Counted from the stretch's first letter, positions 1,084-29,966 are shown. The stretch: 32,000 bases of DNA from Geobacter metallireducens GS-15 (GCF_000012925.1 NC_007517.1:1080001-1112000); one strand, 5' to 3'. Translations and numbers: made by a program. Notes: generated by a model from the letters alone, not told the origin.

Positions 1084-1649
1084 AAATCAACCTGCTCCCG
1101 GTCAGAACGTCGAAGAAGAAGGAGACCGCCAGGCAGCAACTGGCGATTCTCGGCGTCTCGGCGGCTCTCGTGCTCGTTGCCGGCCTTGGCCTCTATGTCT
1201 ATGCCCAGGCAAAGATCAAAGCCACCAAGGAAGAGATTTCCAAGGCTGAAAACGACCTTCAGCAGCTCAAGGTCAAGATCGGCGAGCTGGAAAACATCAA
1301 GAAGCTGAAAGATGAGGTCACGAAGAAGCTCGATGTGCTCGCTCAGCTTCGCAAGGGGAAAACCGGCCCCGTCCGCAGACTCGCGACCCTGAGCGATGCT
1401 ACGCCCGATAAGCTCTGGATCACCAAGTATGCCGAGAGCGGAGCTAGCGTCAGCATCGGTGGGGTTGCTCTCGACGAGGATCTCATCGCCACATTCATGC
1501 GCAACCTCCAAAGATCCGAAGATTTCACGAACGTGGAACTCGTCGTGTCCGAGCAAACGGAGGTCGGCGGCGTGAAGGCCAAGCGGTTCGAGCTCACCTG
1601 TGCCCTGAAGGCGGTCAAGAACCCAGAGCCGCCCGCGCCGAAGAAATAG
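1077..1649 (+). CDS. pilN: Type IV pilus assembly protein PilN (bitopic inner-membrane protein)
   Basis: 190 aa. It has the hallmark N-terminal INLLPVR motif followed by one TM helix (LAILGVSAALVLVAGLGLYVY) and a coiled-coil segment. Translationally coupled to pilM. Confidence 0.9.
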   Translation: MVKINLLPVRTSKKKETARQQLAILGVSAALVLVAGLGLYVYAQAKIKATKEEISKAENDLQQLKVKIGELENIKKLKDEVTKKLDVLAQLRKGKTGPVRRLATLSDATPDKLWITKYAESGASVSIGGVALDEDLIATFMRNLQRSEDFTNVELVVSEQTEVGGVKAKRFELTCALKAVKNPEPPAPKK

Positions 1650-1669
1650 CCACCGGTTAAGGACTCTCC

Positions 1670-2266
1670 ATGGATCCGAGAATCGAAAAACTGCTGAAGC
1701 TTCCCAAGAAACAGAAGATTGCTCTTCTGGTCGCTATCCTGCTTTTTGAAGGTGCTGCCCTCTACTGGGGGCTCTTTCTGCCGCGGCAGACGGAGCTCAA
1801 GGAGCTTCGCGGCCGGCTGGAAGGGTTGCAGAACGAGGTGCGGGAAAAGGAGAGGATCGCCAACAACCTTCCCAAGCTGAAGCGCGAGTATCAGCAACTG
1901 CAGAAGGATCTCGACCTGGCCCTCACCGAACTGCCGAACCAGAAAGAGATACCCTCCCTACTGACCGGCATCACCAGTGTCGGCAAGAGCGCGGGTAACG
2001 ACTTCCTTCTCTTTAGGCCGAAACCTGAAGTTTCCAAGGACTTCTATGCCGAAGTGCCGGTTGATATCTCCATTTCCGGCACCTTCCACAGCGTTGCCAA
2101 TTTCTTCACCGCCGTGGGAAAGCTGCCGAGGATCGTCAATATCACCGATGTCTCCTTTGCAGACATTAAGCAGGCGGGAGGCAAGACCAGCGTCAAAGTG
2201 AACTGTCTCGCCACGACGTTCCGTTTCCTCGACAAGAAAGAGACCAAGGATGACAAGAAGAAATAG
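1670..2266 (+). CDS. pilO: Type IV pilus assembly protein PilO
   Basis: 198 aa with an N-terminal TM helix, a coiled coil and a C-terminal ferredoxin-like region. Position between pilN and pilP. AAGGA RBS upstream. Confidence 0.87.
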   Translation: MDPRIEKLLKLPKKQKIALLVAILLFEGAALYWGLFLPRQTELKELRGRLEGLQNEVREKERIANNLPKLKREYQQLQKDLDLALTELPNQKEIPSLLTGITSVGKSAGNDFLLFRPKPEVSKDFYAEVPVDISISGTFHSVANFFTAVGKLPRIVNITDVSFADIKQAGGKTSVKVNCLATTFRFLDKKETKDDKKK

Positions 2267-2798
2267 CACCAGCATGCTCCTCCTTGCCGCAGCGGCCTCA
2301 CTGGTCCTGGCGTGCGGAGGGTGCAAAAAGGCCGAAGAGAGTCCCCCGCCGGCCCCCCCCGCGAAACCGGCCAACCCGGTCAAGCCTCCCGTGCAGGCTC
2401 AGGCCTCGTCAGCCCAATCCGTGGCAAGTGTTAATCCGTCACTGGATTTTTCCGGCCGCAAAGATCCCTTCAAGCCGTTCATTCAACCCAAGGCCGAGAA
2501 ACCGGCCGCTGCCAGCGGCTCCATTCCCGCCGCCGGCGCACTTCCCATCCAGGGCTATCCGGTGGAGCAGTTCAAAGTCTCCGGCATCATTGCCGGATTC
2601 AAGGAAAACAAGGCTCTTATCGTCGACCCAGCCGGCAAGGGATACGTGGTCAAGGCAGGGATGAAAATGGGCAACAACAATGGCGTGATAATGAGAATCA
2701 CCCCGTCATACCTTGAAGTTGCTGAACGCGTCAGGAACGACGTCACCGGCAAAATAAGCCGGCGGTTGGTGAAACTCGCCCTGCCAAAGAAAAACTAA
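2250..2798 (+). CDS. pilP: Type IV pilus assembly lipoprotein PilP
   Basis: 182 aa. Signal peptide with a lipobox-like LVLAC|GG, an Ala/Pro-rich linker, the RKDPFKPF motif typical of PilP, and a C-terminal beta domain. Overlaps the pilO stop by 17 nt. An alternative ATG at 2274 is possible. Confidence 0.85.
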   Translation: MTRRNSTSMLLLAAAASLVLACGGCKKAEESPPPAPPAKPANPVKPPVQAQASSAQSVASVNPSLDFSGRKDPFKPFIQPKAEKPAAASGSIPAAGALPIQGYPVEQFKVSGIIAGFKENKALIVDPAGKGYVVKAGMKMGNNNGVIMRITPSYLEVAERVRNDVTGKISRRLVKLALPKKN

Positions 2799-2820
2799 CA
2801 GGCTGCCAAGGAGACTCCCC

Positions 2821-5433
2821 ATGAGAATCCAACTCACAATATCCCGCAACCTTGCCTTTCTGTCCCTGTTGGGCGCGTTGTGCGGCTGTGCCGCCACTAA
2901 CGCCTCCGTTATGGGCGACAAGGAGACGAGCCAGTCCTCGGCTCCGGTGATCCGGGACATCCGCGTTACGGGGGAGGGAGACAATGCCCAGGTAAGCATC
3001 TCGGCTAACCGTCCCCTCGCGTACACTTTTTACATGGCGGCGAATCCTCCCAAGGCGGTCGTAGATCTTGCCCAGGTGCAACCGGGTGCCTTTTCCGCGC
3101 CCATGGAGATCAACGCCGGAAACATCAAGCGGATTGCCACCACCCGTGTGGGTGAGGGGGAAGCCGCCATGACCCGGGTAGAGGTCTTCCTTGCCCGGGA
3201 TGCGGAGATGACGGCTGCCACGGATCCCGCCGACAAGGGAACAATGCGTCTGGCCTTTGTCCCCCCGCCGGTTCCTGCTTCTGCCGCACCGGCCAAAGCC
3301 GAGCCGCCGGCGCCTGCCGCTGCGCCGGAACCGGTAGCTCCGCAGCCCGCTAATACGCCTGTAGCTGCAGAACGTAAAATCGCCGATGCCATCACCGCCA
3401 TTACTCCCCGTAAAGACTCCCTTGAAATCCGGACCACGGGCGAGGTGGCCGATTTCAAGACGTTCCGGCTCACGAAGCCCGACCGCCTCGTGCTCGATGT
3501 CTTCGGCGTCAAAGCGGCCCTGGCCCAAAAGGTTGTGCCGGTCAACAGCCTTGGGATCGAGACCGTCCGGGTAGGCGCCTATCCCGACAAGGTGCGTCTT
3601 GTCCTCGATGCTTCAGGTGACACCCTTCCCGCCTTCACGGTGGAGAAGACCGCCGCCGGCCTCGCCGTGGTTCCGTCATCATCCCCGGCTGCCGTCGCGG
3701 CGAAGTCTCGTGAGTCCGAGCAGACGACACCCGCCCTTGTGACGGGCGCGGCTCCCAAGGCGGAAGCCAAGCCCGTTGTGCATGCCGGGGCACCTGAAGT
3801 AGATTCGATAGAATTCAAAGTGGTGGATGCCATCTCCCGCATCGCCATTGAAACGACTGCCCCGTGCAACGCTGAAAAGCCAGTCAAGTCCGCCGAAGGT
3901 CTGACGCTTACTCTCAAGAACTGCATTCTGCCGCGGAAATGGCAGCGGCATCTCGACACGAGCGCTTTTGCCAGCGTTGTCCAGAAGGTGACCCCCTACC
4001 AGGTCAAGGTAAAGGGGCGTCACGACGTGAAAGTGCAGGTCGCGTTACGGAGGCAGACTTCCTATGAGTTGCGCAGGGAAGGGGGAGTCATTTACCTTGA
4101 CCTGAAGAATCCGGTTGATATCACTGCGGCACCGGTCGCATCGGAGCCGGCCAAGCAGACCGAGTCTGAACGGTCCGCTCCTGTGGTCGTCAAATCACAG
4201 GCTGTTTCACCGACGGCAGCCGCGGACGGGAAAAAGGTCTACACGGGGCGCCGGGTCACCCTCGAATTCTCCGATGCCGATATCAGGAAGATCTTCCAAC
4301 TTATTGCCGAAGTCAGCAATCTGAACTTCATCGTCGGTGACGATGTCACCGGCACCATCAGCCTAAAGCTGGTGAACGTTCCCTGGGACCAGGCCCTCGA
4401 CGTAATTCTTGAGAACAAGGGGCTCGGGATGCAGCGGGACGGCAACATCGTTCAGATCCGTCCCAAATCCAAAATCATGACCCTTGCCGATGAAGAGCAG
4501 AAGGCCAAAAAGTCCCGCGAACAGGGGATGGAACTCAAGACCGAGGTCTTTGACGTCAACTATGCCGCAGTGGGCGATGTGGTCACCCAGTTCAACACCC
4601 TCAAGAGCGAGCGGGGGATGATTTCCCAGGATGCCCGCACCAACCGGGTCATCGTCAAGGATATCGCACCGGTGGTGGCGGAGATGAGGAATCTGCTGAA
4701 GAGTCTCGACATCCCCGAGAAACAGGTAATGATCGAGGCCAGAATCGTTGAGGCGAGTTCCACTGTCACTCAGGAACTCGGCATTCAATGGGGCATACAC
4801 GCTCGTGATGCGAATACTATTGGCGTGACGAATGCTGACGTGGGGTTTGGTGGAATCCTCACCGGGCTTGCGCCAACTGCGGGTACATTCGGTCCTGGTG
4901 CTGCGGCCGGCATAACATTTGGGAAACTCATTTCCGGCGGGTCCCTTGACCTGAAACTGTCCGCATTGGCTTCGGGAGAGAGGATAAAGATAATTTCATC
5001 GCCCAAAGTCGTGACCCTTAACAACAAAGCAGCCAAAATATCCCAGGGACAATCTATTCCTTATTCGACTGTCTCTGCTGAAGGGACGAAAACAGAATTC
5101 GTTGAAGCGGCATTGACGCTGGAAGTGACGCCCCACATTGCTTCCGATGGAAGCATCAGTATGAAGATCAAGGCGACTAACAACTCTGCTGCGCCAGCAC
5201 CGACAGGGGCTGTTCCGGCAATAAACAAGAAAGAGGCGACCACAGAGCTTTTGGTAAGGAATGGTGAAACCACAGTTATTGGCGGGATTTACGTGGATAA
5301 TGATTCTCAGGCTGATCAGGGCGTCCCGTTCTTTAAAGATATCCCATTGCTTGGCTGGCTGTTCAAGTCAAGCAATACGCAAAAAATCAAGAACGAACTG
5401 CTAATTTTCATTACTCCTAAAATCGTTCTGTAA
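2821..5433 (+). CDS. pilQ: Type IV pilus secretin PilQ with N-terminal AMIN-type repeats
   Basis: 870 aa with a signal peptide and three AMIN-like modules separated by Ala/Pro-rich linkers. These are followed by an N0/N1 region (VTLEFSDADIRKIFQLIAEVSNLNFIV...) and a C-terminal secretin domain (VMIEARIVEA..., PKVVTLNNKAAKISQG, VIGGIY..., VPFFKDIPLLGWLFK, ELLIFITPKIV). AAGGAG RBS 8 nt upstream. Confidence 0.95.
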   Translation: MRIQLTISRNLAFLSLLGALCGCAATNASVMGDKETSQSSAPVIRDIRVTGEGDNAQVSISANRPLAYTFYMAANPPKAVVDLAQVQPGAFSAPMEINAGNIKRIATTRVGEGEAAMTRVEVFLARDAEMTAATDPADKGTMRLAFVPPPVPASAAPAKAEPPAPAAAPEPVAPQPANTPVAAERKIADAITAITPRKDSLEIRTTGEVADFKTFRLTKPDRLVLDVFGVKAALAQKVVPVNSLGIETVRVGAYPDKVRLVLDASGDTLPAFTVEKTAAGLAVVPSSSPAAVAAKSRESEQTTPALVTGAAPKAEAKPVVHAGAPEVDSIEFKVVDAISRIAIETTAPCNAEKPVKSAEGLTLTLKNCILPRKWQRHLDTSAFASVVQKVTPYQVKVKGRHDVKVQVALRRQTSYELRREGGVIYLDLKNPVDITAAPVASEPAKQTESERSAPVVVKSQAVSPTAAADGKKVYTGRRVTLEFSDADIRKIFQLIAEVSNLNFIVGDDVTGTISLKLVNVPWDQALDVILENKGLGMQRDGNIVQIRPKSKIMTLADEEQKAKKSREQGMELKTEVFDVNYAAVGDVVTQFNTLKSERGMISQDARTNRVIVKDIAPVVAEMRNLLKSLDIPEKQVMIEARIVEASSTVTQELGIQWGIHARDANTIGVTNADVGFGGILTGLAPTAGTFGPGAAAGITFGKLISGGSLDLKLSALASGERIKIISSPKVVTLNNKAAKISQGQSIPYSTVSAEGTKTEFVEAALTLEVTPHIASDGSISMKIKATNNSAAPAPTGAVPAINKKEATTELLVRNGETTVIGGIYVDNDSQADQGVPFFKDIPLLGWLFKSSNTQKIKNELLIFITPKIVL

Positions 5434-16921: not shown

Positions 16922-17374
16922 TCAGGCGGAGGAGCGTTCGCGGAAGCGGAGATAGTCGTCGAGAATCCTGCGGTGGTCGAAGCAGAGTTCTGAGGGGAGA
17001 TCGTTTAAGGGAAAGACCGCGAGGTTGGCGGCATCGTCGGCTGCGGCGGGAACGCCCGATGCCTCGGCCACGTACACGGTGGATATGGTGTGCTGGCGGG
17101 GGTCCCTGGCCGGGTCAGAGTAACAGCCGAGAAGGCGCAGGTTGGTCACGTGGAGGGATGTCTCCTCCAGTGCTTCGCGCATGGCGGCCGCTTCGAGGGT
17201 TTCTCCGTAATCCACGAAGCCGCCGGGGAGCGCCCATCCCCTGGGCTCGTTTTTTCGTTCGATCAACACGATTCCCCCCGCCGTCTCGATGATGATGTCG
17301 ACGGTGGGAACGGGGTTGCGGTAGCGCTTGACCTCTGCTCCGCAACGGGGGCAGGTGAGGTGATCGAAGGACAT
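16922..17374 (-). CDS. NUDIX hydrolase with an N-terminal CxxC element
   Basis: 150 aa. Nudix box [24 protein letters not shown] and N-terminal CPRCG. Its stop lies 2 nt from the stop of the convergent GGDEF-EAL gene. Confidence 0.9.
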
Positions 17375-17383
17375 GGGAGCCTC

Positions 17384-17416
17384 GAAAAAGAAAAGGGAGG
17401 AACGAGTCCTCCCTTT
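17384..17416 (-). terminator. Rho-independent terminator downstream of the PxxKW gene (minus strand)
   Basis: On the minus strand AAAGGGAGGA-ctcgt-TCCTCCCTTT is followed by TCTTTTT. It sits between the PxxKW stop (17444) and the NUDIX start (17374). Confidence 0.6.
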
Positions 17417-17443
17417 TCCGGTTCTTGGAGAGCAGTGGAAGGA

Positions 17444-17740
17444 TTACTTCTTTTTGCCGCCACCGCCGGAGGCCTTCTTGGAGGCCTTGAGGGGGTTCAC
17501 CTTCAGTTCTTCGCTGGCGATTTCGACCTTCACGTGGGTGGCGAAGTTGCAGATGCCCGCGGACCACTTCTTGACGGGTGCCGGGTAGGCGCTGCAGACC
17601 TTGCCGATGCTCCCGTCGACAACGCGCTCACATCCTTCGCAGTTTTCAACCACAATCTGGCAGGAACCGCCGGTGAAGATGCAACCCTGCTTTCCCCAGA
17701 AGGTACACTCGGTACCGGGAAGAACTGTTTGACACTGCAT
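17444..17740 (-). CDS. Small cysteine-rich protein, PxxKW-type (8 Cys, Lys-rich tail), function unknown
   Basis: 98 aa starting MQCQTVLPGTEC... after a strong AGGAGGA RBS 7 nt upstream. Cys at residues 3, 12, 20, 27, 34, 37, 49 and 64. P-V-K-K-W at 55-59. C-terminal tail KASKKASGGGGKKK. The longer track ORF (to 17839) has no RBS and is rejected. Confidence 0.8.
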   Translation of the reverse strand: MQCQTVLPGTECTFWGKQGCIFTGGSCQIVVENCEGCERVVDGSIGKVCSAYPAPVKKWSAGICNFATHVKVEIASEELKVNPLKASKKASGGGGKKK

Positions 17741-17777
17741 ACTGAATCCTCCTGAATCGTTTTGTTCCCTAGAACTG

Positions 17778-17807
17778 TCTATTAGCCAATCTAGCAATTT
17801 CAAAAGA
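17778..17807 (-). promoter_or_regulatory. Putative sigma70-type promoter for the PxxKW gene
   Basis: On the minus strand: TTGACT, an 18-nt spacer, then TAGATT, about 40 nt upstream of the ATG. Sequence match only. Confidence 0.4.
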
Positions 17808-18033
17808 AAAAAGTCAACTGTAAAATCCCCGGCGCACAATGCCTCAAAAGGCCCGTCGATCCGACCTTTCCAATATCTGTGACCGTAAAAGGAGGACCTC
17901 GTTTAAAGGGAGGTCGGGGGGTACGAATTCAGACTCGGCAGGGTTGACTCGCCACGGGGTATGTATTAGGCTTTCACTGCATGAAAAATCGGGTCTCCGC
18001 CCCATGCGGAGCCATTTCCCCAAGGGAGGGACA

Positions 18034-21978: not shown

Positions 21979-23817
21979 ATGGGCTATCGTAACCTGCAGG
22001 ATTGCGTCTTTGACCTGGAAGCACGCGGCGATCTCGTCCGTATTGATGTGGAGACCGACCCGAACATCGAGATCGGTGCCATCCAGCGCCGGGTCTACCA
22101 GGCAGGGGGGCCGGCGCTCCTCTTCACCCGGGTCAAGGGGTGCCGTTTTCCCATGCTTGGCAACCTCTTCGGCACCATGGCCCGGACCAAGTTCATCTTC
22201 CGGGACACCCTGGACGACATCCGCCGTCTCGTGGAGCTGAAGATCAACCCGACCGCCGTGCTGAAAAATCCCAAGGAATACGCGGGGGCCCCCCTGGCGG
22301 CGCTCCGGCTCCTTCCGCGCCAGGTCTCCCGGGGGCCGATTCTCGGCCACCGCACCACCATCGCCGAACTCCCCCAGCTTAAATCGTGGCCCATGGACGG
22401 CGGCCCCTTCGTGACCCTCCCCCAGGTCTACTCCGAGAGCCCCAAGCGCCCCGGCTTCCGTTTCTCGAACCTGGGGATGTACCGGGTGCAGTTGGCCGGC
22501 AACGATTACCGCCTGAACGAAGAAGTGGGGGTCCACTACCAGATCCACCGGGGTATCGGCGTCCACCACGCCGAGGCCATCGAACGGGGCGAGCCCCTGC
22601 GCGTCAATATCTTCGTGGGAGGAGCGCCATCCATGACCGTGGCCGCGGTCATGCCCCTTCCTGAGGGACTTCCCGAGCTTTCCTTTGCCGGCCTCCTTGC
22701 CGGGCACCGGCTGGCCATGGTCTGCCGACGGGGGGAACTCCCCATGCCTGCCGAGGCCGACTTCGTCATCACCGGCACCATCGACCCGAACAAGACCCTC
22801 CCCGAAGGTCCCTTCGGCGATCACCTGGGGTACTACAGCCTGGCCCATCCCTTCCCGGTTCTGCGGGTGGAGAACGTCTGGCACCGGGACGACGCCATCT
22901 GGCCCTTCACCTCCGTCGGCCGCCCCCCCCAGGAGGACACCACCTTCGGTGCCTTCATCCACGAGCTGACCGGCGCCCTCATTCCCGAGGTCCTTCCCGG
23001 GGTGAAGGGGGTCCATGCCGTGGACGCCGCCGGCGTCCACCCCCTGCTCCTGGCCGTGGGGAGCGAGCGCTACGTCCCCTACGAGGCCGAGCGGGTGCCG
23101 CGGGAACTCCTCACCATCGCCAGCGCCATCCTGGGGAACGGTCAGCTCTCCCTGGCCAAGTACCTCTTCATCACCCCCAATGAGGACAACCCGCCGGACA
23201 TCCACCACATCGACGAGTTCCTCACCTTCATCCTGGAGCGGGCCGACTGGCGGCGCGACCTCCACTTCCACACCCGCACCACCATCGACACCCTCGACTA
23301 CTCGGGGAGCGGCCTCAACGAAGGGTCCAAAGTCATCGTGGCCGCGGCAGGCCCGAAGCGGCGCGACCTTCCCACGGAGGTGCCAGGAGGGCTCCGGCTT
23401 CCGGACGGTTTCACCACCCCCCATGTCTGTCTTCCCGGCATCCTGGCCGTCACCGGTCCGGCCTTCCCCGGCTACGGGGACAACGGCGCACCGGACATGG
23501 AGCGCTTCTGCGCCTCCTTCGCCCCCGATGACCCGATCAACCGCTTCCCCCTGGTGGTGATCGTTGACGACAGCGCCTTTACTTCCCGTACCCTCAACAA
23601 TTTCCTCTGGGTCACCTTCACCCGCTCCAACCCTGCCGCCGACATCCACGGCATCGGCTCGTCGGTCCGGTGCAAGCACTGGGGATGCGGGGGGGCGCTC
23701 GTCATCGACGCCCGGGTGAAGCCCCATCACGCGCCGCCGCTTCTGGATGTGCCGGAGATCGAGCGGCGAGTCGATGCCCTCGGCGCGCCCGGCGGGCCGC
23801 TGCGCGGAATTATTTGA
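21979..23817 (+). CDS. UbiD-family (prenylated-FMN dependent) decarboxylase, long form
   Basis: 612 aa. UbiD-like N-terminus (LQDCVFDLEARGDLVRIDVETDPNLEI..., GPALLFTRVKG), GMYRVQL, HYQIHRGIGVHH, and C-terminal VVIVDDSAF...FLWVTFTRSNPAADIHG. The antisense 714-aa track ORF is a shadow. Confidence 0.88.
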   Translation: MGYRNLQDCVFDLEARGDLVRIDVETDPNIEIGAIQRRVYQAGGPALLFTRVKGCRFPMLGNLFGTMARTKFIFRDTLDDIRRLVELKINPTAVLKNPKEYAGAPLAALRLLPRQVSRGPILGHRTTIAELPQLKSWPMDGGPFVTLPQVYSESPKRPGFRFSNLGMYRVQLAGNDYRLNEEVGVHYQIHRGIGVHHAEAIERGEPLRVNIFVGGAPSMTVAAVMPLPEGLPELSFAGLLAGHRLAMVCRRGELPMPAEADFVITGTIDPNKTLPEGPFGDHLGYYSLAHPFPVLRVENVWHRDDAIWPFTSVGRPPQEDTTFGAFIHELTGALIPEVLPGVKGVHAVDAAGVHPLLLAVGSERYVPYEAERVPRELLTIASAILGNGQLSLAKYLFITPNEDNPPDIHHIDEFLTFILERADWRRDLHFHTRTTIDTLDYSGSGLNEGSKVIVAAAGPKRRDLPTEVPGGLRLPDGFTTPHVCLPGILAVTGPAFPGYGDNGAPDMERFCASFAPDDPINRFPLVVIVDDSAFTSRTLNNFLWVTFTRSNPAADIHGIGSSVRCKHWGCGGALVIDARVKPHHAPPLLDVPEIERRVDALGAPGGPLRGII

Positions 23818-23840
23818 GCGAGATGGCGAGGGACTGAGGA

Positions 23841-26800
23841 GTGAGGGGAAGAAAAAAACGGATGCCGGCACGACCCGGCGCCGCCAGGGAGCGGATACGT
23901 TCGACCGCGGCACCTGCCGTCGGCGAAAAGGTGCTCAATGCCCTGCGGGACCTGCCGGCGGGAATGATCTATACCCTGGGCGCCAAGCCCACCGTGCTGC
24001 GGGGGCTCGCCCTTGCCATCGAAAAGCGGGTGAAGGGAATCGACTGGAGTCCCGACGGTGCCACCCTCTTTGCCGAAGTCATGGACGGAAGCCGCCACCA
24101 CGAGGTGCGCCTGGAGGCGAACGGAGGCTTCCTCACCCCCTCCTGCGACTGCCCGCTCTGGCGCCCCACCGGCCACTGCCCCCACGTCATCGCCGCCCTG
24201 GCGGTACTGAAAAAGGGGCTGGTGCATCAGGCGATTACCAGTCTCCGGCTCGACAGCGACTACCTGGCCGAGGTGAGCGGCTGGCTTTCGGGCGTTGAGG
24301 CCGCGCAACCGACCGCGCCGGCCGTGCCGCGCCTGGTGGTGGAGCGGGGCGCCGACGGCATCCAGGCGCGGATATGGCTCGGGGAGCATCCCGTCTCCAT
24401 CCATGACCAGGCGCTCCCCCGGACGGTGCGGGATTTCCTCTGGACCCTCCTCAATCCCCGGGAGAGCGGTTTCATCATCGAGCGCTACCTGGAGGCCTTT
24501 GGCGACGACGCCCCCATGGCCCTGCGCCAGGATGACAATGAGATACCCCTGCGCTTCGATCGGGGGAGGGTCCACGGCACCCTGACCCTTCTGGAGCAGG
24601 TCCGCGGCATGGTCATTGCCCGCAAGGGGCTGGAGGACGGCCATCCCATTCCGGACACCTGTTTTGCCGCCTACCGTTACTATTTCGACATCCCTGCCGG
24701 TGCTGTCCGGGTCATCGACTCCTTCGAGGGGTGGGATCTCTGGAACACCATCAACTACGAGGCCGCCGAATGGAGCCTCGACACCGGCGTTTCCGTCGAG
24801 CGCAATTCCCGGACCATCTCCCTTCCTGCCGATGCCTTCAACGCCATCGGGCTGACCGTCACCGAGAAGGGGCTTCCCACGATCCTCGAACGCATCCGGT
24901 TTTACGGTGCCGGCGGACCGGGCGAACCAGCACGGATCACCCACAACTACCGCCTGCGGGTGGCCGACATGAACGACACCACCGCCCTGCTGCTGGCCGA
25001 GGGGGTCTACGGCGACGCGGCAATTCCCCTTTCCGCCGGCGCCTTCAGCTTTTTCACCAGCCGGGGCCGGTCCACGGCATCGGTTCCCCTGAGGACCAAG
25101 AAGCGGAGTAGCGCGGTGATCGCCGGTTGCTTCGCAGCCCTTGACTGCGTCACCAGGGCCGAACTGGAGCGGACCATCAGGCACGCCCTTGCGGGCGACG
25201 ACTTCCTGAAACGCACTGTGAAGAGCGAGGCGAAGCGGATCATCACGGCGTTTGCCGCGGCCTGCGAAACCCGCGAAACGACGCTCCTGGCGGCCGATGG
25301 CGCCTGGCTCATATCCGTGGCCGAACCGAAGGTGGAGGCGCAACTCCTGGAGATCCCCTACCGGCTCTTCGGTGCCGAAATCTTCGGCTCGTCGGACCTT
25401 GCCGGCGCCATGACCGTCAACCGCGACGCGCTCTTTCGCCAATTTCCCGCACTTCACAACCGTCTTGCGGAGGCTGGGTTCGACCTGGTGCTCCAGGACC
25501 GCCCGGTGGAGGCTGTCACCCTCGATGTGACCCTCGACGCCACCCGGTCCACCCTGGACTGGTTCGAGCTCCGCCCCGAGATCCGCTGCGGCACCGGCGA
25601 GCTTACCGAACAGGAGATCGCCGAGGCCATGGCCAGCGGCGGCGTCTTCCGCCGGGGCGATTCCTTTCTCCTCATCAACGAGGAATCGTCCCGCATCCTG
25701 GCCATGCTCTACCCCGAGGCCGGGGTGAAGAAGCGGAGGAAGGCCGAGGTGGTCCGCATCCCGCGGCTCCAGATCCTCGACTGGCTCGTCCTGCGGCACC
25801 ATGGGGTCTCGGTTCGCCTCTCCCCCGAGGATGAGAGGATCTTCGCCAGCCTCGCCACCTTCGAAGAGATACCTTCATCCCCCCTCCCCGAAAGGCTCCA
25901 GGCGACCCTGCGTCACTACCAGGTGGACGCCTTTCATTGGCTCGCCTTTCTCTACACCCACCGCTTTGGCGCCTGCCTCGCCGACGACATGGGGCTCGGC
26001 AAGACCATCCAGGCCATCAGCCTTCTGGCGGCGCTCCACGAGGGGACGCTCCCCTCGCGGGTGCCGGAGCCGCGTCCTCACCTCATCGTCGTTCCCCCGA
26101 GCCTCCTCTTTAACTGGGAGAACGAGTTGGCCCGCTTCTACCCCGCATTCACCGTCCTTACCTATCGGGGCACCGGCCGCAGCGCCGACTTCACCGGGGT
26201 CGACATCGTCCTCACCAGCTATGGCATCATCCCCCGTGATATTGGGATCCTGGCGGAGATTCCTTTCCACTGCATCGTCTTCGACGAGGCCCAGGCCGTG
26301 AAAAACATCCAGGCCGACACCACCGGCGCCTGCCGCCGGCTGCGGGGCGCGTTCACCCTCTGCCTCACCGGCACCCCGGTTGAAAACCACCTCGGTGAGT
26401 ATTTCTCGGTCATGGACCTGGCCGTGCCGGGGCTTCTGGGCTCCTACGAGGAATTCCGGCGCCAGGCCGGCAACGCCGCGGCTCCCTTCCTCGAAACCCT
26501 TGTCCGGCGCACCCGCCCCTTTGTCCTGCGCCGCTCCAAGCAGATGATCGCCGCCGAGCTTCCCCCCAAGATCGAAACCGACATCTACCTGGAGCTGACT
26601 CCCCGGCAGAAGGCCCTCTATACCCGCACCGTCGAAGAGGTACGCGAGACCGTGCTCGAAGCGTGGCGCGGCAAGTCACCCGGCCAGGCGCGTATCATTG
26701 CCCTCACCGCCATCCTGCGGCTGCGCCAGCTCTGTCTCTCCCCCCGGCTCCTCATTGCCGACTCCAGGGAACCGTCCCCCAAGGTGGAGTTCCTCGTGGA

Positions 26801-27290
26801 GCAGCTGGAAGAACTCTTTACCGAGGGGCATAGTGTTCTCGTCTTCTCCCAGTTCACCTCTTTTCTCGACATCGTCGAAGGAGAACTGTCCCGCAGGGGG
26901 GTTCACTACTATCGCCTCGACGGCTCCACTCCGGTCCCCGAACGGAAAAGACTCGTCACCGCCTTCCAGAAGGGCGATGAGCCGTCCGTCTTCCTCCTCT
27001 CCCTGAAGGCCGGTGGCAAGGGGCTCAACCTTACCCGCGCCACCTATGTCTTCCATCTCGATCCCTGGTGGAACCCCGCAGTGGAAAACCAGGCCTCTGA
27101 CCGGGCCCACCGTATCGGCCAGACACGCCAGGTCACCATCACCCGCCTTGTCATGCGCCACACCATCGAAGAGAAGATGATGGAACTGAAAAAGCGCAAG
27201 CTCAAGCTCTACCATGCCCTTTTGGAGGAGAACTCCGCAGGGGACGGGGGAGGCATCAGCCGGGAGGATTTCGAGTTCCTGCTGGGGTAG
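23841..27290 (+). CDS. SNF2-family ATPase/helicase with an N-terminal SWIM zinc finger
   Basis: 1149 aa. SWIM CxCx9CxH (CDCPLWRPTGHCPH). SNF2 motifs LADDMGLGKTIQ (I), FDEAQAVKN (II), LTGTPVEN (III), helicase-C QASDRAHRIGQTRQV (VI). The start is uncertain: GTG 23841 has GAGGA immediately adjacent, and ATG 23862 is an alternative. Confidence 0.9.
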   Translation: MRGRKKRMPARPGAARERIRSTAAPAVGEKVLNALRDLPAGMIYTLGAKPTVLRGLALAIEKRVKGIDWSPDGATLFAEVMDGSRHHEVRLEANGGFLTPSCDCPLWRPTGHCPHVIAALAVLKKGLVHQAITSLRLDSDYLAEVSGWLSGVEAAQPTAPAVPRLVVERGADGIQARIWLGEHPVSIHDQALPRTVRDFLWTLLNPRESGFIIERYLEAFGDDAPMALRQDDNEIPLRFDRGRVHGTLTLLEQVRGMVIARKGLEDGHPIPDTCFAAYRYYFDIPAGAVRVIDSFEGWDLWNTINYEAAEWSLDTGVSVERNSRTISLPADAFNAIGLTVTEKGLPTILERIRFYGAGGPGEPARITHNYRLRVADMNDTTALLLAEGVYGDAAIPLSAGAFSFFTSRGRSTASVPLRTKKRSSAVIAGCFAALDCVTRAELERTIRHALAGDDFLKRTVKSEAKRIITAFAAACETRETTLLAADGAWLISVAEPKVEAQLLEIPYRLFGAEIFGSSDLAGAMTVNRDALFRQFPALHNRLAEAGFDLVLQDRPVEAVTLDVTLDATRSTLDWFELRPEIRCGTGELTEQEIAEAMASGGVFRRGDSFLLINEESSRILAMLYPEAGVKKRRKAEVVRIPRLQILDWLVLRHHGVSVRLSPEDERIFASLATFEEIPSSPLPERLQATLRHYQVDAFHWLAFLYTHRFGACLADDMGLGKTIQAISLLAALHEGTLPSRVPEPRPHLIVVPPSLLFNWENELARFYPAFTVLTYRGTGRSADFTGVDIVLTSYGIIPRDIGILAEIPFHCIVFDEAQAVKNIQADTTGACRRLRGAFTLCLTGTPVENHLGEYFSVMDLAVPGLLGSYEEFRRQAGNAAAPFLETLVRRTRPFVLRRSKQMIAAELPPKIETDIYLELTPRQKALYTRTVEEVRETVLEAWRGKSPGQARIIALTAILRLRQLCLSPRLLIADSREPSPKVEFLVEQLEELFTEGHSVLVFSQFTSFLDIVEGELSRRGVHYYRLDGSTPVPERKRLVTAFQKGDEPSVFLLSLKAGGKGLNLTRATYVFHLDPWWNPAVENQASDRAHRIGQTRQVTITRLVMRHTIEEKMMELKKRKLKLYHALLEENSAGDGGGISREDFEFLLG

Positions 27291-27348: not shown

Positions 27349-27384
27349 AAGCCCCCGACTTTGTCGTCGGGGGCTTGTTTTTTG
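27349..27384. terminator. Bidirectional intrinsic terminator between convergent genes
   Basis: AAA-GCCCCCGAC-tttgtc-GTCGGGGGC-TTGTTTTTT. There is an A-tract on one side and a T-tract on the other. It lies between the SNF2 gene (+) and the hydrolase::MlaA gene (-). Confidence 0.75.
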
Positions 27385-27407: not shown

Positions 27408-29651
27408 TTATCGCTCTATGTCCAGCTCCCGTTTCTTCTTGTAGAGCAGGCGCACCAGGTCGTACTCGAAGGGGGAGCCGGTCTGGTAGTACCGGAACGG
27501 GATGTTGTGCCGCGTATCAATGGCGTTCACGCCCGTGTAGGCTGATCCCGCGCCGATATTCTGGTCCATGTCCGTTGGCTGGTAGAGGTAGAAATAGCTC
27601 GCCGCGGAATCCCCCACGCGGCCGGTCGTGTCCCGCAGGCTGGAAGGGCCGAAGATCGGCAGCACGATATACGGCCCCTGCTTCAATCCCCACCACCCCA
27701 GCGTCTGGCCGAAATCTTCCTCGTGCTTCGGAAAGCCCAGATCGGTGGCGGGGTCCCACATCCCGCCGATGCCGAGCGTCGAGTTGATGAGGAACCGGGT
27801 AAAGACCGTGGCGGAGGTCTTGGGCCGCAACTGGAGAATCGAATTGGTCAGGTTGCGGACCTCCGAGATGTTGGCGAAGATGCCGGAGATCCGGTCTTGG
27901 AGAAAGACCGGGGTGATGAATTCGTAGGTCCGGGTTACCGGCAGGAACAGGTACTCGTCAAACATGGCGTTAAAGCGGTAGAGCGCCCGGTTCACCGGTT
28001 CGATGGGATCATGCACGTCGATGACGTATGACAGCCCCGGCTTGGCCTCTGAGCGGCGCGGGGCGATGATTTGCCGCGTCCCTGTGGCGGAGGGCTTCGG
28101 ATTTCGCGCCCCTGCCTGTCCGTTCAAAATTCCTGTGGAAATGACGGCCGGGCGGGGTGCGGTAAATGCCTCATTGCGCGGTCCGCCGGAATCCCTCAGT
28201 GGAGGAGCGGCTTCCTGGGACGGAAGCGCGGTTTGCGTCTGCTCCGCCGGCTCGGCACCGGGCTTCATCTCTCTCCCCGCGCCGGCAGCTTCGCCACTAT
28301 CCGGAGCTGTTGTGCCCGTATTTCCGCCAGTTGTCTCCCCCCTGAAGATTTCCAGCATGTGCGCCACGTTCACCCGGTGGTCGATGTTGCCGCAGTGGCC
28401 GCCCCGGGGGTAGATCCTGGCGCGGGAGCCGAACACGTCCTTCAGATAGTCGATGTCTCCCGGCGCCAGGAGCATATCGTCGACGTTATGGACCAGATAG
28501 ACCGACGGGGAATTGCGCAGGAATTGCTCGATGCTCCTGAGGCTGAGTTGTTCGATCAGCTGCCGCTCGGTCATCCCCGGAATCTGTTCCAGGTAGTAGG
28601 GGGCGAGGAGATCCCGGAAATAGTCCAGGAACTTGACCAGATCCGCCACCTTGAAATAGTCGGTCAGGGAGTCGGTTGTGGAGAGTTCGAGGTTTTTCGG
28701 CTTGATGTAGCCGGCATTGGTGAAGACATCGGAAGTGAAGGCCATGTTTGCCACGGCCAGCCGGAATGAAAGGCCGATCAGGGCTGCCAGGTTTTCGTCA
28801 TTGGGCTTTCTGCCCCTGAAGAGGAAATCGCCCGTAAATTCGACCCGTTCGTTCGACTGGTAAATGGCCGTAAAGGCCCTGAAGGCATTGTCGAAGAATT
28901 CCTGGAATTTCTCCTCCCCTCCCGGAATCTTCTTGATCATCTCGTCGAGGACCCCTGCCGCATGGTAGAGGCTCACCGGCGGATTGATGAGGAGCACCTT
29001 GTTGAACCTGAACTGGCTGAGCCGATTGTCCAGTTCGGCCAGAAACGCGGCGTGATCGGCACCGAGGCTGTATCCGGCCAGATCAAAGCCGGTGATCGTC
29101 ACATCTTCACGGACATCACGGGTAATCAGCTCCATGGCCCGGTAGAGGTCCCGGGCGTCTTCCATCAGGAAACCGGGAATACCGCTCCCCGATGCAGCGG
29201 GAATGAAGTTCGGGTGGGTTGCGGAGGGGAGGCAGACCACATGGAATCCCGCCTTGAAAAATACCCGCTGCAGGAACTGTATTTTCGGGTCGTTGTGCCC
29301 GGCCCCCATGCCGGCAATGAGGAAGATGAGTGGTGCCGGCCGGCGCTGGGTGGCAATGGAATAGCGCAGCTTCCTGTCGTACCAGAGGATATCGGGAACC
29401 GGCCGGTCCTCGAATACTGTCACCTCCGGCTCCCTGAAGGGGATTTTCCGCGGCACTTCGGCCTGCAGTTCCTTTGGCGTGCCGATCACGGTGGCGGCGT
29501 ACGGATCGGCAAACGGGTATTCGTAAACTTCTTCCGCCGCGCCGACCGGCGAAACCAGCGTGTGGCAGCAGATGGCCAGCGCCAGCAGCGCGCCGATGAT
29601 CGGGGGAATTGGGCTTCCTTCCCCGCGGATGCGTAACCCCTCGAAGATCAT
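27408..29651 (-). CDS. Fusion protein: secreted/anchored alpha/beta-hydrolase-like domain + low-complexity linker + MlaA/VacJ lipoprotein-family domain
   Basis: 747 aa from MIFEGLRIRG..., with an AAGGAGG RBS 5 nt upstream of ATG 29651. Hydrophobic signal/anchor IIGALLALAICC. Hydrolase motifs LIFLIAGMGAGH, nucleophile elbow GYSLG, NVDDMLL, GGHCGN. A linker of about 100 aa rich in P/A/G/T. C-terminal MlaA-like motifs DPIEPVNRALYRFN, TLGIGGMWDPA, EDFGQTLGWWG, GPYIVLPIFGPSSLRDT. The track ORF start at 29768 has no RBS. Confidence 0.85.
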   Translation of the reverse strand: MIFEGLRIRGEGSPIPPIIGALLALAICCHTLVSPVGAAEEVYEYPFADPYAATVIGTPKELQAEVPRKIPFREPEVTVFEDRPVPDILWYDRKLRYSIATQRRPAPLIFLIAGMGAGHNDPKIQFLQRVFFKAGFHVVCLPSATHPNFIPAASGSGIPGFLMEDARDLYRAMELITRDVREDVTITGFDLAGYSLGADHAAFLAELDNRLSQFRFNKVLLINPPVSLYHAAGVLDEMIKKIPGGEEKFQEFFDNAFRAFTAIYQSNERVEFTGDFLFRGRKPNDENLAALIGLSFRLAVANMAFTSDVFTNAGYIKPKNLELSTTDSLTDYFKVADLVKFLDYFRDLLAPYYLEQIPGMTERQLIEQLSLRSIEQFLRNSPSVYLVHNVDDMLLAPGDIDYLKDVFGSRARIYPRGGHCGNIDHRVNVAHMLEIFRGETTGGNTGTTAPDSGEAAGAGREMKPGAEPAEQTQTALPSQEAAPPLRDSGGPRNEAFTAPRPAVISTGILNGQAGARNPKPSATGTRQIIAPRRSEAKPGLSYVIDVHDPIEPVNRALYRFNAMFDEYLFLPVTRTYEFITPVFLQDRISGIFANISEVRNLTNSILQLRPKTSATVFTRFLINSTLGIGGMWDPATDLGFPKHEEDFGQTLGWWGLKQGPYIVLPIFGPSSLRDTTGRVGDSAASYFYLYQPTDMDQNIGAGSAYTGVNAIDTRHNIPFRYYQTGSPFEYDLVRLLYKKKRELDIER

Positions 29652-29966
29652 CTCAGCCTCCTTGCGTGACGTATGCCCCCTTGCGGTCCACCCCTGCGCG
29701 CTCTGGCCTTTGGCGCGTGAAGAGCCGCCTGCGTGAATGCCGGGCAGTCGAACCATTCTCAGCTTCAAGGGTACACCTCATGGGGAGCAAGACAAGGGCT
29801 GCGGAGCAGTTTCCTTGTGCGGAAACCCGTCCTTGAACATGACAGGCTTTTTTGTGCCTTTCCGGTGGACGGTATGAGGTAATCGCCCGAAATTACTTTA
29901 TACTGTCTCTGACGTCGGTACCTTTCCGCGGCAATGTCGCCGCAATACGATTCACGGGAGCGCCAG

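What the first reader, a model, noticed from the sequence alone, without database searches (positions are those of the whole stretch)
27408..29651. Single ORF fusing a serine-hydrolase-like alpha/beta-fold domain to an MlaA/VacJ outer-membrane lipid-transport domain
Canonical MlaA is a stand-alone lipoprotein of about 250 aa. It removes mislocalised phospholipids from the outer leaflet and passes them to MlaC. Here the MlaA-like module (DPIEPVNRALYRFN ... GPYIVLPIFGPSSLRD) is the C-terminal third of a 747-aa protein. Its N-terminal part of about 430 aa looks like an alpha/beta hydrolase, with a GYSLG nucleophile elbow and candidate Asp (NVDDML) and His (GGHCGN). The two are joined by a P/A/G/T-rich linker of about 100 aa and preceded by a hydrophobic signal/anchor. 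No mlaBCDEF genes are in the window. The reading frame is continuous, with a strong RBS and a bidirectional terminator. The hypothesis, which is inference, is that the fusion couples MlaA-type extraction of outer-leaflet phospholipid directly to hydrolysis by a lipase or phospholipase. That would merge the roles normally split between MlaA and PldA-type enzymes. I do not know of a characterised example.
Basis: partly seen in the sequence, partly recalled or inferred. Interest (0 to 1): 0.7.

Follow-up and report, generated by a model that had tools for sequence, protein, structure and literature searches.

The report
Known MlaY–MlaZ lipase–channel fusion protein
This Geobacter metallireducens gene really does join a lipase-type enzyme to an outer-membrane lipid channel, but this two-part system (MlaY plus MlaZ) and its fused forms were already described in 2023, so the finding is correct rather than new.

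Summary
A 747-codon gene on the minus strand (27408-29651) encodes four parts in order: a Sec signal peptide, a roughly 400-aa alpha/beta hydrolase, a disordered linker of about 105 aa, and a C-terminal MlaA/VacJ domain (Pfam E=1e-62). The protein is identical to G. metallireducens ABB31237.1 / UniProt Q39WY7, already named "VacJ family lipoprotein fusion protein".

In that model the MlaA paralog MlaZ passes mislocalised outer-leaflet phospholipid to the periplasmic lipase MlaY. That paper also reports MlaY–MlaA fusion proteins.

What I verified:
- The N-domain is a MlaY homolog (37% identity, E=2e-90, to the Pseudomonas delhiensis ortholog).
- Its Ser195/Asp392/His419 align to the published S187/D388/H415. 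Ser and His are invariant among the 120 best homologs; Asp392 is D in 117 and E in 3.
- The C-domain is closer to MlaZ (182 bits) than to E. coli MlaA (82 bits).

Small additions:
- The fused proteins lack the MlaZ lipobox.
- The Geobacter and Nitrospirales fusions form one clade (bootstrap 93-100).
- A Myxococcota fusion arose separately.

No enzymology exists for this protein. Novelty: already known. Interest: low.

The parts
27408..29651 (-). Complete CDS, 747 aa. It is a MlaY–MlaZ fusion, identical to G. metallireducens ABB31237.1 / WP_004514688.1 / UniProt Q39WY7.
   Evidence: ORF listing. Exact match to database protein P0001.
29657..29663 (-). Shine-Dalgarno sequence AAGGAGG, 5 nt upstream of the ATG.
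   Evidence: Read directly from the sequence.
29538..29651 (-). Signal peptide, aa 1-38. It has a basic n-region, the hydrophobic stretch IIGALLALAICCHTLV, and a predicted SPase-I site VGA|AEE. There is no conserved lipobox.
   Evidence: N-termini of 120 homologs end in A-x-A-like sites just before the conserved Y-[DE]-Y-P motif. Cys28/29 are not conserved. AF2 predicts a helix at 17-36. The cleavage site is inferred; no signal-peptide predictor was available.
28332..29537 (-). MlaY-type alpha/beta-hydrolase domain (aa 39-440), with an all-helical cap of about 150 aa inserted at aa ~228-380.
   Evidence: AF2 pLDDT is mostly above 90 over aa 60-440, dipping to 68-87 over aa 241-290 in the cap. 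Foldseek hits are lipases and alpha/beta hydrolases, e.g. 6i8w PlaF, 7ots ABHD6 and monoacylglycerol lipases. It is 37% identical, E=2e-90, to the P. delhiensis MlaY ortholog.
29061..29075 (-). Nucleophile elbow G-Y-S-L-G (aa 193-197). The Ser195 codon is at 29067-29069.
   Evidence: G, Y, S and the second G are present in 117 of 117 aligned homologs; Leu196 is L in 115 and M in 2. Ser195 lies between strand 186-194 and helix 196-211. It aligns with MlaY S187 (PMC10374164).
28476..28487 (-). N-V-D-D (aa 389-392). The catalytic acid is Asp392, codon 28476-28478.
   Evidence: D391 is conserved in 119 of 120 homologs. D392 is D in 117 and E in 3. It follows strand 384-389 and aligns with MlaY D388.
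28395..28397 (-). Catalytic His419, within the G-G-H-C-G-N motif.
   Evidence: Conserved in 120 of 120 homologs. It follows strand 411-414. It aligns with MlaY H415, the residue whose Ala substitution abolishes function in P. aeruginosa (PMC10374164).
28014..28331 (-). Disordered P/A/G/T/S/E-rich linker (aa 441-546). It contains no Cys and so no lipobox.
   Evidence: pLDDT is below 50 for 440-494 and 504-519. Linker length varies among fused orthologs: 70-104 aa in Geobacter, 126-131 in Nitrospirales, 40 in Myxococcota.
27426..28013 (-). MlaA/VacJ-family domain of the MlaZ type (aa 547-742).
   Evidence: Pfam PF04333, E=9.7e-63. Solved MlaA chains match at E~1e-27. It is 45% identical (182 bits) to P. 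delhiensis MlaZ, against 36% (82 bits, 140 aa only) to E. coli MlaA.
27349..27376 (.). GC-rich hairpin between the convergent SNF2-helicase gene and this gene; a probable bidirectional terminator.
   Evidence: The scan found 11 pairs followed by a T-run on the + strand. TTTATTT follows the core stem on the - strand. It was scored by the tool on the + strand only.

Best explanation
**What it is.** The gene encodes a single-polypeptide version of the MlaYZ outer-membrane lipid-asymmetry system.

**Proposed mechanism, step by step.**
1. The protein is exported by Sec and its signal peptide is cleaved.
2. The C-terminal MlaZ-type MlaA domain inserts into the inner leaflet of the outer membrane. 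There it forms the channel through which glycerophospholipids that have strayed into the outer leaflet leave the membrane.
3. The N-terminal MlaY-type alpha/beta hydrolase (Ser195-Asp392-His419, with a helical cap) sits in the periplasm. It is tethered under the channel by a disordered linker of about 105 aa.
4. The hydrolase deacylates the extracted lipid. The products are released on the periplasmic side rather than in the outer leaflet.
5. The covalent tether replaces both the non-covalent MlaY–MlaZ contact and the lipid anchor that stand-alone MlaZ proteins carry.

**Shown here:**
- the domain architecture
- homology to MlaY and MlaZ
- conservation and placement of the triad
- the Rosetta-stone relationship between fused and split forms

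**Taken from the literature on P. aeruginosa:**
- MlaY and MlaZ act together, in parallel with MlaA-MlaBCDEF.
- His415 is required.
- E. coli PldA can substitute for the lost pathways.

**Inferred:** the substrate, the bond cleaved, the direction of lipid flow, and all of the above as applied to Geobacter.
For: **Architecture:**

**N-domain is a MlaY homolog.**
- It matches the P. delhiensis ORF encoded directly upstream of an MlaA-family gene at 37% identity over 421 aa, E=2e-90.
- That ORF's GYSLG Ser, NADD Asp and GGHCGN His fall at 187, 388 and 415. These are exactly the residues published for P. aeruginosa MlaY (PMC10374164).

**Triad.**
- G, Y, S and the second G of GYSLG are invariant among the 117 homologs aligned there (Leu196 is L in 115, M in 2).
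- His419 is conserved in 120 of 120. D392 is D in 117 and E in 3.
- The residues sit at the canonical post-strand positions of the fold.

**Fold:** Foldseek returns alpha/beta-hydrolase lipases, including P. aeruginosa phospholipase A PlaF and monoacylglycerol lipases.

**C-domain is of the MlaZ type:**
- 182 bits to MlaZ against 82 bits to E. coli MlaA.
- The NCBIfam MlaA equivalog model scores 75.7 bits, against a cutoff of 375.

**Gene neighbourhood in 80 species-level loci:**
- 65 have the hydrolase gene immediately upstream of the MlaA-family gene.
- 10 are fused.
- Examples: L002, L001 and L084.

**Published genetics and follow-up work:**
- MlaYZ is redundant with MlaA-MlaBCDEF; the H415A phenotype; fusion proteins noted with the same layout (AB_hydrolase 107-454, MlaA 529-741).
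- MlaY-dependent cardiolipin loss in P. aeruginosa (PMC11977310).
Against: - No biochemical activity has been shown for this protein. As far as the searched literature shows, none has been shown for purified MlaY either; the published support is genetic and pharmacological.
- The N-domain has no Pfam or NCBIfam hit. It is only 11-16% identical to any solved hydrolase, so substrate specificity cannot be read from homology.
- The MlaA domain of my model is of mixed confidence (pLDDT 30-86). I could not inspect coordinates, so neither the triad geometry nor the domain-domain contact was measured.
- Nothing in the window links the gene to other envelope-lipid genes.
- In the G. sulfurreducens-clade relative G. 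anodireducens, split mlaYZ lies in one gene string with mlaE-mlaF-mlaD-pqiC-like genes. This hints that, in some lineages, the pair may feed an MCE transporter rather than acting purely as a destroy pathway.
Confidence: 0.8

Rival explanations
1. The fusion is an artefact, such as a sequencing or assembly error or a recent frameshift that joined two genes. The real products would then be separate MlaY and MlaZ proteins.
For: - Most lineages, including other Geobacteraceae and G. anodireducens, encode the two parts separately.
- One close metagenomic relative (L001, 69% identity) is called as two genes.
Against: - The identical 747-aa protein occurs on 25 contigs, including the finished 3,997,420-bp chromosome.
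- Orthologs from G. hydrogenophilus and G. grbiciae fall in the same 90%-identity cluster.
- 77 of the 120 best hits are 650 aa or longer, and those listed match over most of the query. They include Nitrospirales proteins on 2-4.7 Mb contigs.
- The linker has no lipobox or signal peptide that a separate MlaZ would need.
- L001 is nested inside the fused Geobacter clade (bootstrap 100). Its junction shows a frameshift plus a TAG, and the downstream ORF lacks any signal peptide. L001 is therefore the derived or erroneous form.
Confidence: 0.02
2. The N-domain is catalytically active but is not a degradative phospholipase. It could be an acyltransferase that moves an acyl chain from the extracted phospholipid to another envelope acceptor. 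It could also be a lysophospholipase or esterase acting on a different lipid delivered by the MlaA domain.
For: - Ser-Asp-His alpha/beta hydrolases include acyltransferases and thioesterases. The top Foldseek hits include a thioesterase (3qit) and an acetyltransferase (2vat) alongside the lipases.
- No substrate has been defined biochemically for any MlaY.
- Some relatives cluster mlaYZ with mlaEFD-pqiC-like genes. This arrangement would also suit a processing-then-transport role.
Against: [quoted passage not shown]
- MlaY is required for cardiolipin loss in P. aeruginosa (PMC11977310).
- Both results fit simple degradation.
- No candidate acceptor-binding domain is present.
Confidence: 0.12
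3. The N-domain is a non-catalytic lipid-binding module. It would act as a tethered functional replacement for the periplasmic carrier MlaC, receiving lipid from the MlaA domain for retrograde transport.
For: - No mlaC was seen next to mlaYZ-mlaEFD in the Geobacter-type operons.
- The domain has a large helical cap that could bind lipid.
Against: - Ser195 and His419 are invariant, and Asp392 is D in 117 and E in 3 of the 120 best homologs, down to 44% identity. The surrounding G-Y-S-L-G and G-G-H-C-G-N motifs are also conserved.
- H415A inactivates MlaY in vivo (PMC10374164).
- A tethered domain cannot shuttle across the periplasm.
Confidence: 0.04

Closest known systems
P. aeruginosa MlaY (PA3238) plus MlaZ (PA3239), the second outer-membrane lipid-asymmetry pathway (Guest, Lee, Wang, Silhavy, PNAS 2023; PMC10374164)
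   Same: - It has the same two modules in the same order, with the hydrolase encoded 5' of the MlaA paralog.
- The triad aligns residue for residue (S195/D392/H419 against S187/D388/H415).
- The C-domain groups with MlaZ rather than MlaA by pairwise score.
   Different: - Here the two are one polypeptide, joined by a disordered linker of about 105 aa.
- The MlaZ part has lost its lipobox.
- The paper describes P. aeruginosa MlaY as a lipoprotein. This protein and most homologs carry an SPase-I type signal peptide.
- Identity is moderate: 37% for the N-domain and 45% for the C-domain, measured against the P. delhiensis orthologs.
- No genetics or biochemistry exists for the Geobacter protein.
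MlaY–MlaA fusion protein A0A3A4W9L3 (unclassified Desulfobacteraceae), shown in Fig. 6B/C of PMC10374164
   Same: - The layout is the same: AB_hydrolase at 107-454 and MlaA at 529-741 there, against about 39-440 and 547-742 here.
   Different: - It comes from a different organism.
- I could not retrieve that sequence, so I do not know whether it belongs to the Geobacter/Nitrospirales fused clade or is another independent fusion.
E. coli MlaA (VacJ) in the MlaA-OmpC/F complex, feeding MlaC and MlaFEDB
   Same: - It belongs to the same Pfam family (PF04333).
- The conserved N-terminal motif DP-x-E-x-x-NR and the G-P-Y-x-x-L-P segment are present.
- The presumed channel role for outer-leaflet phospholipid is the same.
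   Different: - It is not an MlaA equivalog (75.7 bits against the NCBIfam cutoff of 375).
- Only about 140 aa align, at 36% identity.
- It is not a lipoprotein.
- No mlaC or mlaFEDB genes are nearby.
- The lipid is proposed to be destroyed rather than carried back to the inner membrane.
PldA / OMPLA outer-membrane phospholipase A
   Same: The functional outcome is the same: removal of mislocalised outer-leaflet phospholipid by hydrolysis. E. coli PldA can substitute for the lost P. aeruginosa pathways (PMC10374164).
   Different: - The fold and location are unrelated. PldA is a beta-barrel with a Ser-His-Asn site in the outer leaflet.
- Here the enzyme is a periplasmic alpha/beta hydrolase with a Ser-Asp-His triad.
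- There is no sequence similarity and no PldA Pfam hit.

Membership tests
MlaA/VacJ family (Pfam PF04333) | Match to the family profile above the curated threshold, over most of the domain. | tested here: met
   211.8 bits against a cutoff of 25, E=9.7e-63, covering profile positions 2-193 of 195 at aa 547-742. The family profile also hits solved MlaA chains 5nuo, 8i8r and 5nuq at about 1e-27.
Canonical MlaA (ortholog of E. coli MlaA) | Reaches the NCBIfam equivalog score for MlaA (NF011672). | tested here: not met
   75.7 bits against a cutoff of 375. Only aa 547-683 align.
Canonical MlaA (ortholog of E. coli MlaA) | N-terminal lipobox, i.e. an outer-membrane lipoprotein. | tested here: not met
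   The signal peptide ends VGA|AEE. Cys28/29 are not conserved in orthologs, and the linker has no Cys. By contrast, 62 of 68 split MlaZ-like ORFs do have a lipobox.
Canonical MlaA (ortholog of E. coli MlaA) | Works with MlaC and MlaFEDB. | not testable with these tools
   None of these genes is in the 32-kb window. The rest of the genome could not be scanned.
MlaZ (MlaA paralog partnered with MlaY) | More similar to MlaZ than to MlaA. | tested here: met
   45% identity and 182 bits over the whole domain to P. delhiensis MlaZ. Against E. coli MlaA it is 36% and 82 bits over 140 aa. This is a pairwise test only; no tree including many canonical MlaA sequences was built.
MlaZ (MlaA paralog partnered with MlaY) | [quoted passage not shown] | tested here: met
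   Here it is fused in frame. In 65 of 80 related species loci the MlaA-family ORF directly follows or overlaps the hydrolase ORF.
MlaY (PA3238-type periplasmic alpha/beta-hydrolase lipase) | Full-length homology to Pseudomonas MlaY. | tested here: met
   37% identity over 421 aa, E=2e-90, to the P. delhiensis ortholog (L021), whose numbering matches P. aeruginosa MlaY. The P. aeruginosa sequence itself was not available to me.
MlaY (PA3238-type periplasmic alpha/beta-hydrolase lipase) | Ser-Asp-His triad equivalent to S187/D388/H415. | tested here: met
   S195, D392 and H419 align to it, with identical D-to-H spacing of 27 residues. Ser and His are invariant in all aligned homologs; Asp392 is D in 117 and E in 3.
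MlaY (PA3238-type periplasmic alpha/beta-hydrolase lipase) | Alpha/beta-hydrolase fold with the nucleophile elbow between a strand and a helix. | tested here: met
   The AF2 N-domain has pLDDT mostly above 90. Ser195 lies between strand 186-194 and helix 196-211, Asp follows strand 384-389, and His follows strand 411-414. Foldseek hits are all alpha/beta hydrolases, with probability 1.0.
MlaY (PA3238-type periplasmic alpha/beta-hydrolase lipase) | Outer-membrane lipoprotein, as stated for P. aeruginosa MlaY. | tested here: not met
   The fused proteins have no conserved lipobox. Only 10 of 73 split MlaY-like ORFs have a lipobox-like motif. The P. delhiensis ortholog has no Cys in its signal peptide.
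MlaY (PA3238-type periplasmic alpha/beta-hydrolase lipase) | Phospholipid-degrading activity. | not testable with these tools
   This needs enzymology. The published support is genetic and pharmacological (PMC10374164, PMC11977310).
PldA/OMPLA | Beta-barrel phospholipase A1 family profile. | tested here: not met
   MlaA was the only Pfam family hit at E<=1.

The most novel reading that the evidence does not exclude
The fused gene of the G. metallireducens clade may not be a local fusion of the Geobacter-type mlaY and mlaZ genes. It may instead be a separately evolved form that lacks a lipid anchor, is shared with Nitrospirales, and was probably moved between phyla.

It may have replaced the ancestral split pair. 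In the G. sulfurreducens clade that pair sits in one gene string with mlaE-mlaF-mlaD-pqiC-like genes.

If so, G. metallireducens would maintain outer-membrane asymmetry with a self-contained, single-protein extract-and-destroy device uncoupled from MCE transport. The Geobacter-type operon would point to an undescribed MlaYZ-to-MCE route that works without MlaC.
Probability: 0.3. Interest if true: 0.4.

Novelty: already known. Interest (0 to 1): 0.2.

Why it matters
The finding independently arrives at a recently published idea. Some Gram-negative bacteria clear misplaced phospholipid from the outer leaflet by pulling it through an MlaA-like channel straight into a periplasmic lipase.

The fused form is useful mainly as a tool:
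- It fixes the two activities at 1:1 in one chain.
- This makes it a convenient target for structural work on how the channel hands lipid to the enzyme.
- It is also a convenient target for the first direct enzymology of the MlaY family, which still has no curated profile and no solved structure.

It does not open a new question in its own right.

Tried and rejected
**Searches that gave nothing for the N-domain**
- Pfam and NCBIfam on the full protein and on the N-domain alone gave no hit.
- A sequence search of the PDB with the N-domain gave only a spurious E=1.3 hit.
- A family-profile search of the PDB found only MlaA chains.

**Sequences and data I could not obtain**
- I could not obtain the P. 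aeruginosa PA3238/PA3239 sequences directly. I used the P. delhiensis orthologs recovered in the genome scan as proxies.
- I could not obtain A0A3A4W9L3.
- I could not access model coordinates or PAE. Triad geometry and the MlaA-on-top-of-hydrolase packing reported by Guest et al. were therefore not re-measured.
  - A search seeded with a split Geobacter-type MlaY listed no protein named as G. metallireducens among its best 120. Only some entries carry names.
  - This suggests, but does not prove, that the split pair is absent.

**Technical failures and negative side-checks**
- The first bootstrap run timed out. I reran it with a numpy distance routine.
- Trees are neighbour-joining only, without a maximum-likelihood check.
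- Rfam found nothing in the window.
- A literature search for Geobacter Mla components added nothing beyond Guest et al..

**Idea rejected**
- I considered that the divergent NMT1-type ABC genes are functionally linked, because a TAXI/NMT1_3 gene precedes mlaY in Desulfuromonadales. The window's gene is a different family (NMT1_2) and did not match at 1e-8.
Full report
**1. The observation**

The minus strand carries one uninterrupted ORF. Mechanically it runs 27408..29768 from a TTG.

This product is identical to a database protein on record on 25 contigs, including a 3,997,420-bp one. Its identifiers are G. metallireducens ABB31237.1, WP_004514688.1 and UniProt Q39WY7. UniProt already names it "VacJ family lipoprotein fusion protein".

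The C-terminal module is a solid MlaA domain:
- Pfam PF04333 matches aa 547-742 at E=9.7e-63.
- A family profile hits the solved MlaA chains 5nuo, 8i8r and 5nuq at about 1e-27.

The N-terminal module gets no Pfam or NCBIfam hit, even when searched alone, and has no solved sequence relative. An AlphaFold2 model built on an 80-sequence alignment nevertheless gives pLDDT mostly above 90 for aa 60-440, dipping to 68-87 over aa 241-290 in the cap. Foldseek against the PDB then returns only alpha/beta hydrolases. Many are lipases, including P. aeruginosa phospholipase A PlaF (6i8w), ABHD6, monoacylglycerol lipases and CalA-type lipases. All are only 11-16% identical.

Residues 440-519 are modelled as disordered. 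In the G. hydrogenophilus ortholog (95% identical protein), the linker is about 66% P/A/G/T/S/E.

A GC-rich hairpin at 27349-27376 separates the gene from the convergent SNF2-helicase gene.

The rest of the window holds:
- pilMNOPQ and shikimate-pathway genes
- accB/accC and a GGDEF-EAL protein
- phosphoglucomutase, nifU/nifS and a UbiD-family gene
- the SNF2 helicase
- on the other side, a divergent NMT1-type ABC transporter

There are no mla genes.

**2. What it is**

A literature search found the answer at once. Guest, Lee, Wang and Silhavy (PNAS 2023, PMC10374164) reported the following for P. aeruginosa:
- It has a second MlaA-family protein, PA3239 (MlaZ).
- MlaZ works with the alpha/beta-hydrolase PA3238 (MlaY), which is encoded directly upstream.
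- This pathway runs in parallel with MlaA-MlaBCDEF.
- The putative MlaY active site is S187/D388/H415, and H415A abolishes function.
[quoted passage not shown] Their example is A0A3A4W9L3 (AB_hydrolase 107-454, MlaA 529-741).

I tested whether the window protein belongs to that system.

A scan of one genome per species returned 80 related loci. One was Pseudomonas delhiensis (L021). Its hydrolase ORF, counted from its Met, has the GYSLG serine, the NADD aspartate and the GGHCGN histidine at 187, 388 and 415. That matches the published P. aeruginosa numbering exactly.
- The Geobacter N-domain aligns to it over 421 residues at 37% identity, E=2e-90.
- Ser195, Asp392 and His419 fall on those three positions.
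- The C-domain is 45% identical (182 bits, whole domain) to the adjacent P. delhiensis MlaZ.
- Against E. coli MlaA it is only 36% identical (82 bits) over 140 aa.
- It scores far below the NCBIfam MlaA equivalog threshold, 75.7 against 375 bits.

Among the 120 best database homologs:
- G, Y, S and the second G of GYSLG are present in all 117 sequences that cover the region; Leu196 is L in 115 and M in 2.
- His419 is present in 120 of 120.
- Asp391 is present in 119 of 120.
- Asp392 is D in 117 and E in 3.

In the model, the three triad residues sit at the canonical places of the fold. Ser lies between strand 186-194 and helix 196-211. Asp follows strand 384-389. His follows strand 411-414. 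An all-helical cap of about 150 aa lies between about 228 and 380.

**3. Fused versus split forms**

In the 80 species loci:
- 10 carry both domains in one ORF: three Geobacter, six Nitrospirales and one Myxococcota.
- 65 have the hydrolase ORF immediately followed or overlapped by an MlaA-family ORF.
- 3 are cut by a contig end.
- 2 have no MlaA gene within 4 kb.

Gene calls on L002, L001 and L084 show the same arrangement.

Neighbour-joining trees of either domain place the Geobacter and Nitrospirales fusions in one clade. Bootstrap support is 93 for the N-domain, 94 for the C-domain and 100 for the two concatenated. The Myxococcota fusion falls elsewhere, so fusion happened at least twice.

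The split genes of other Geobacteraceae lie in a different clade.
- G. anodireducens MlaY is only 44% identical to the G. metallireducens N-domain.
- Nitrospirales fusions are 48-50% identical to the G. metallireducens protein.
- This pattern suggests cross-phylum transfer of the fused gene. It rests on NJ trees only and was not tested further.

The single apparently split close relative (L001) is nested within the fused Geobacter clade. It has a frameshift plus a TAG at the junction, and its downstream ORF has no signal peptide. It is a secondary disruption or an assembly error.

**4. Export and anchoring**

The fused proteins and most stand-alone MlaY homologs end their signal peptides in A-x-A-type sites (here VGA|AEE) just before the conserved Y-[DE]-Y-P motif. 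They have no conserved lipobox.
- 62 of 68 stand-alone MlaZ-type ORFs carry a clear lipobox.
- Only 10 of 73 stand-alone MlaY-type ORFs carry a lipobox-like motif.
- The linkers of fused proteins contain no Cys, with one exception.

The fusion has therefore replaced MlaZ's lipid anchor with a tether to the enzyme. The database name "lipoprotein" is probably wrong for this protein. This is inference from sequence; no signal-peptide predictor was available.

**5. Mechanism**

The best-supported reading is the published MlaYZ model in a single chain. The MlaZ-type domain sits in the inner leaflet of the outer membrane and funnels mislocalised outer-leaflet glycerophospholipid to the tethered periplasmic Ser-Asp-His hydrolase. 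The hydrolase degrades the lipid on the periplasmic side.

What supports each step:
- The architecture, the homology and the triad are shown here.
- The functional coupling comes from P. aeruginosa genetics (PMC10374164).
- Further support comes from MlaY-dependent cardiolipin loss (PMC11977310).
- Effects of mlaYZ overexpression on the LbcA-CtpA protease are also consistent with lipid turnover (PMC12569750).
- Substrate, bond specificity and relevance in Geobacter are inferred.

Rivals:
- An assembly artefact is effectively excluded.
- An acyltransferase or another esterase role is not excluded.
- A non-catalytic MlaC-like carrier role is disfavoured by the near-invariant triad and by the H415A phenotype.

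**6. Novelty and verdict**

The hypothesis is well reasoned, but it coincides with a published model, and the paper that proposed the model already reported this class of fusion. The specific protein has carried a "fusion protein" label in UniProt.

My additions are incremental:
- loss of the lipobox in fused forms
- a shared origin of the Geobacter and Nitrospirales fusions, plus an independent Myxococcota one
- the absence of a curated profile or solved structure for MlaY
- an mlaY-mlaZ-mlaE-mlaF-mlaD-pqiC-like gene string in the G. sulfurreducens clade

I rate the finding as already known and of low interest. Its practical value is as a convenient single-chain target for structural and enzymatic work on MlaYZ.

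Noticed in passing
L084 3969-10715 and L085 (G. anodireducens); L048; L037: In the G. sulfurreducens-clade relatives, seven genes lie on one strand in this order: a TAXI/NMT1_3 binding protein, mlaY, mlaZ, mlaE, mlaF, mlaD and a PqiC-like (PF03886) lipoprotein gene. No mlaC is visible. This places MlaYZ next to an MCE transporter, an association not described in the P. aeruginosa work. It is absent from most other loci. L016 and L033 have mlaD plus pqiC-like genes nearby on the opposite strand.
   Followed up: partly
L001 3400-3470: A metagenomic Geobacter-type relative (69% identity) is called as separate hydrolase and MlaA genes. The junction shows a 1-nt frameshift and an in-frame TAG relative to the fused orthologs. 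The downstream ORF starts inside the linker with no signal peptide. It is a pseudo-split or an assembly error, nested in the fused clade.
   Followed up: yes
L006-L010, L016 (Nitrospirales fused proteins), linker regions: Nitrospirales linkers are longer (126-131 aa) and less P/A/G-rich than the Geobacter ones. Several contain a charged, heptad-like stretch (e.g. QLDRQIQELERKLQES) that looks helical or coiled-coil. This suggests the linker is not just a passive tether in that lineage.
   Followed up: no
L021 3899-5383 (P. delhiensis MlaY ortholog) and 73 split MlaY-like ORFs: The literature describes P. aeruginosa MlaY as an outer-membrane lipoprotein. The P. delhiensis ortholog, however, has no Cys in its signal peptide (…GPALA|RD). 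Only 10 of 73 stand-alone MlaY-like ORFs show a lipobox-like motif. Most MlaY proteins therefore look soluble and periplasmic.
   Followed up: partly
L044 and L068: Two gammaproteobacterial genomes have a MlaY-like gene with no MlaA-family ORF within the 4-kb downstream flank. The pairing is therefore not universal.
   Followed up: no
window 22001-27000: G+C is 0.64-0.68 here, against about 0.57-0.63 in most of the window. This stretch covers the UbiD-family gene (21979-23817) and the 1149-aa SNF2-family helicase gene (23841-27290). GC skew is also negative there. It is possibly a compositionally distinct insertion.
   Followed up: no
window 28-5433: There is a complete pilM-pilN-pilO-pilP-pilQ type IV pilus assembly cluster, and the secretin carries an AMIN domain. 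It is followed by the shikimate-pathway genes aroC, aroK, aroB and aroQ.
   Followed up: partly
window 16922-17838: The interval between the GGDEF-EAL gene and the phosphoglucomutase gene holds only ORFs without a Pfam hit (e.g. 17090-17755, 221 aa). Its coding status is unclear.
   Followed up: no
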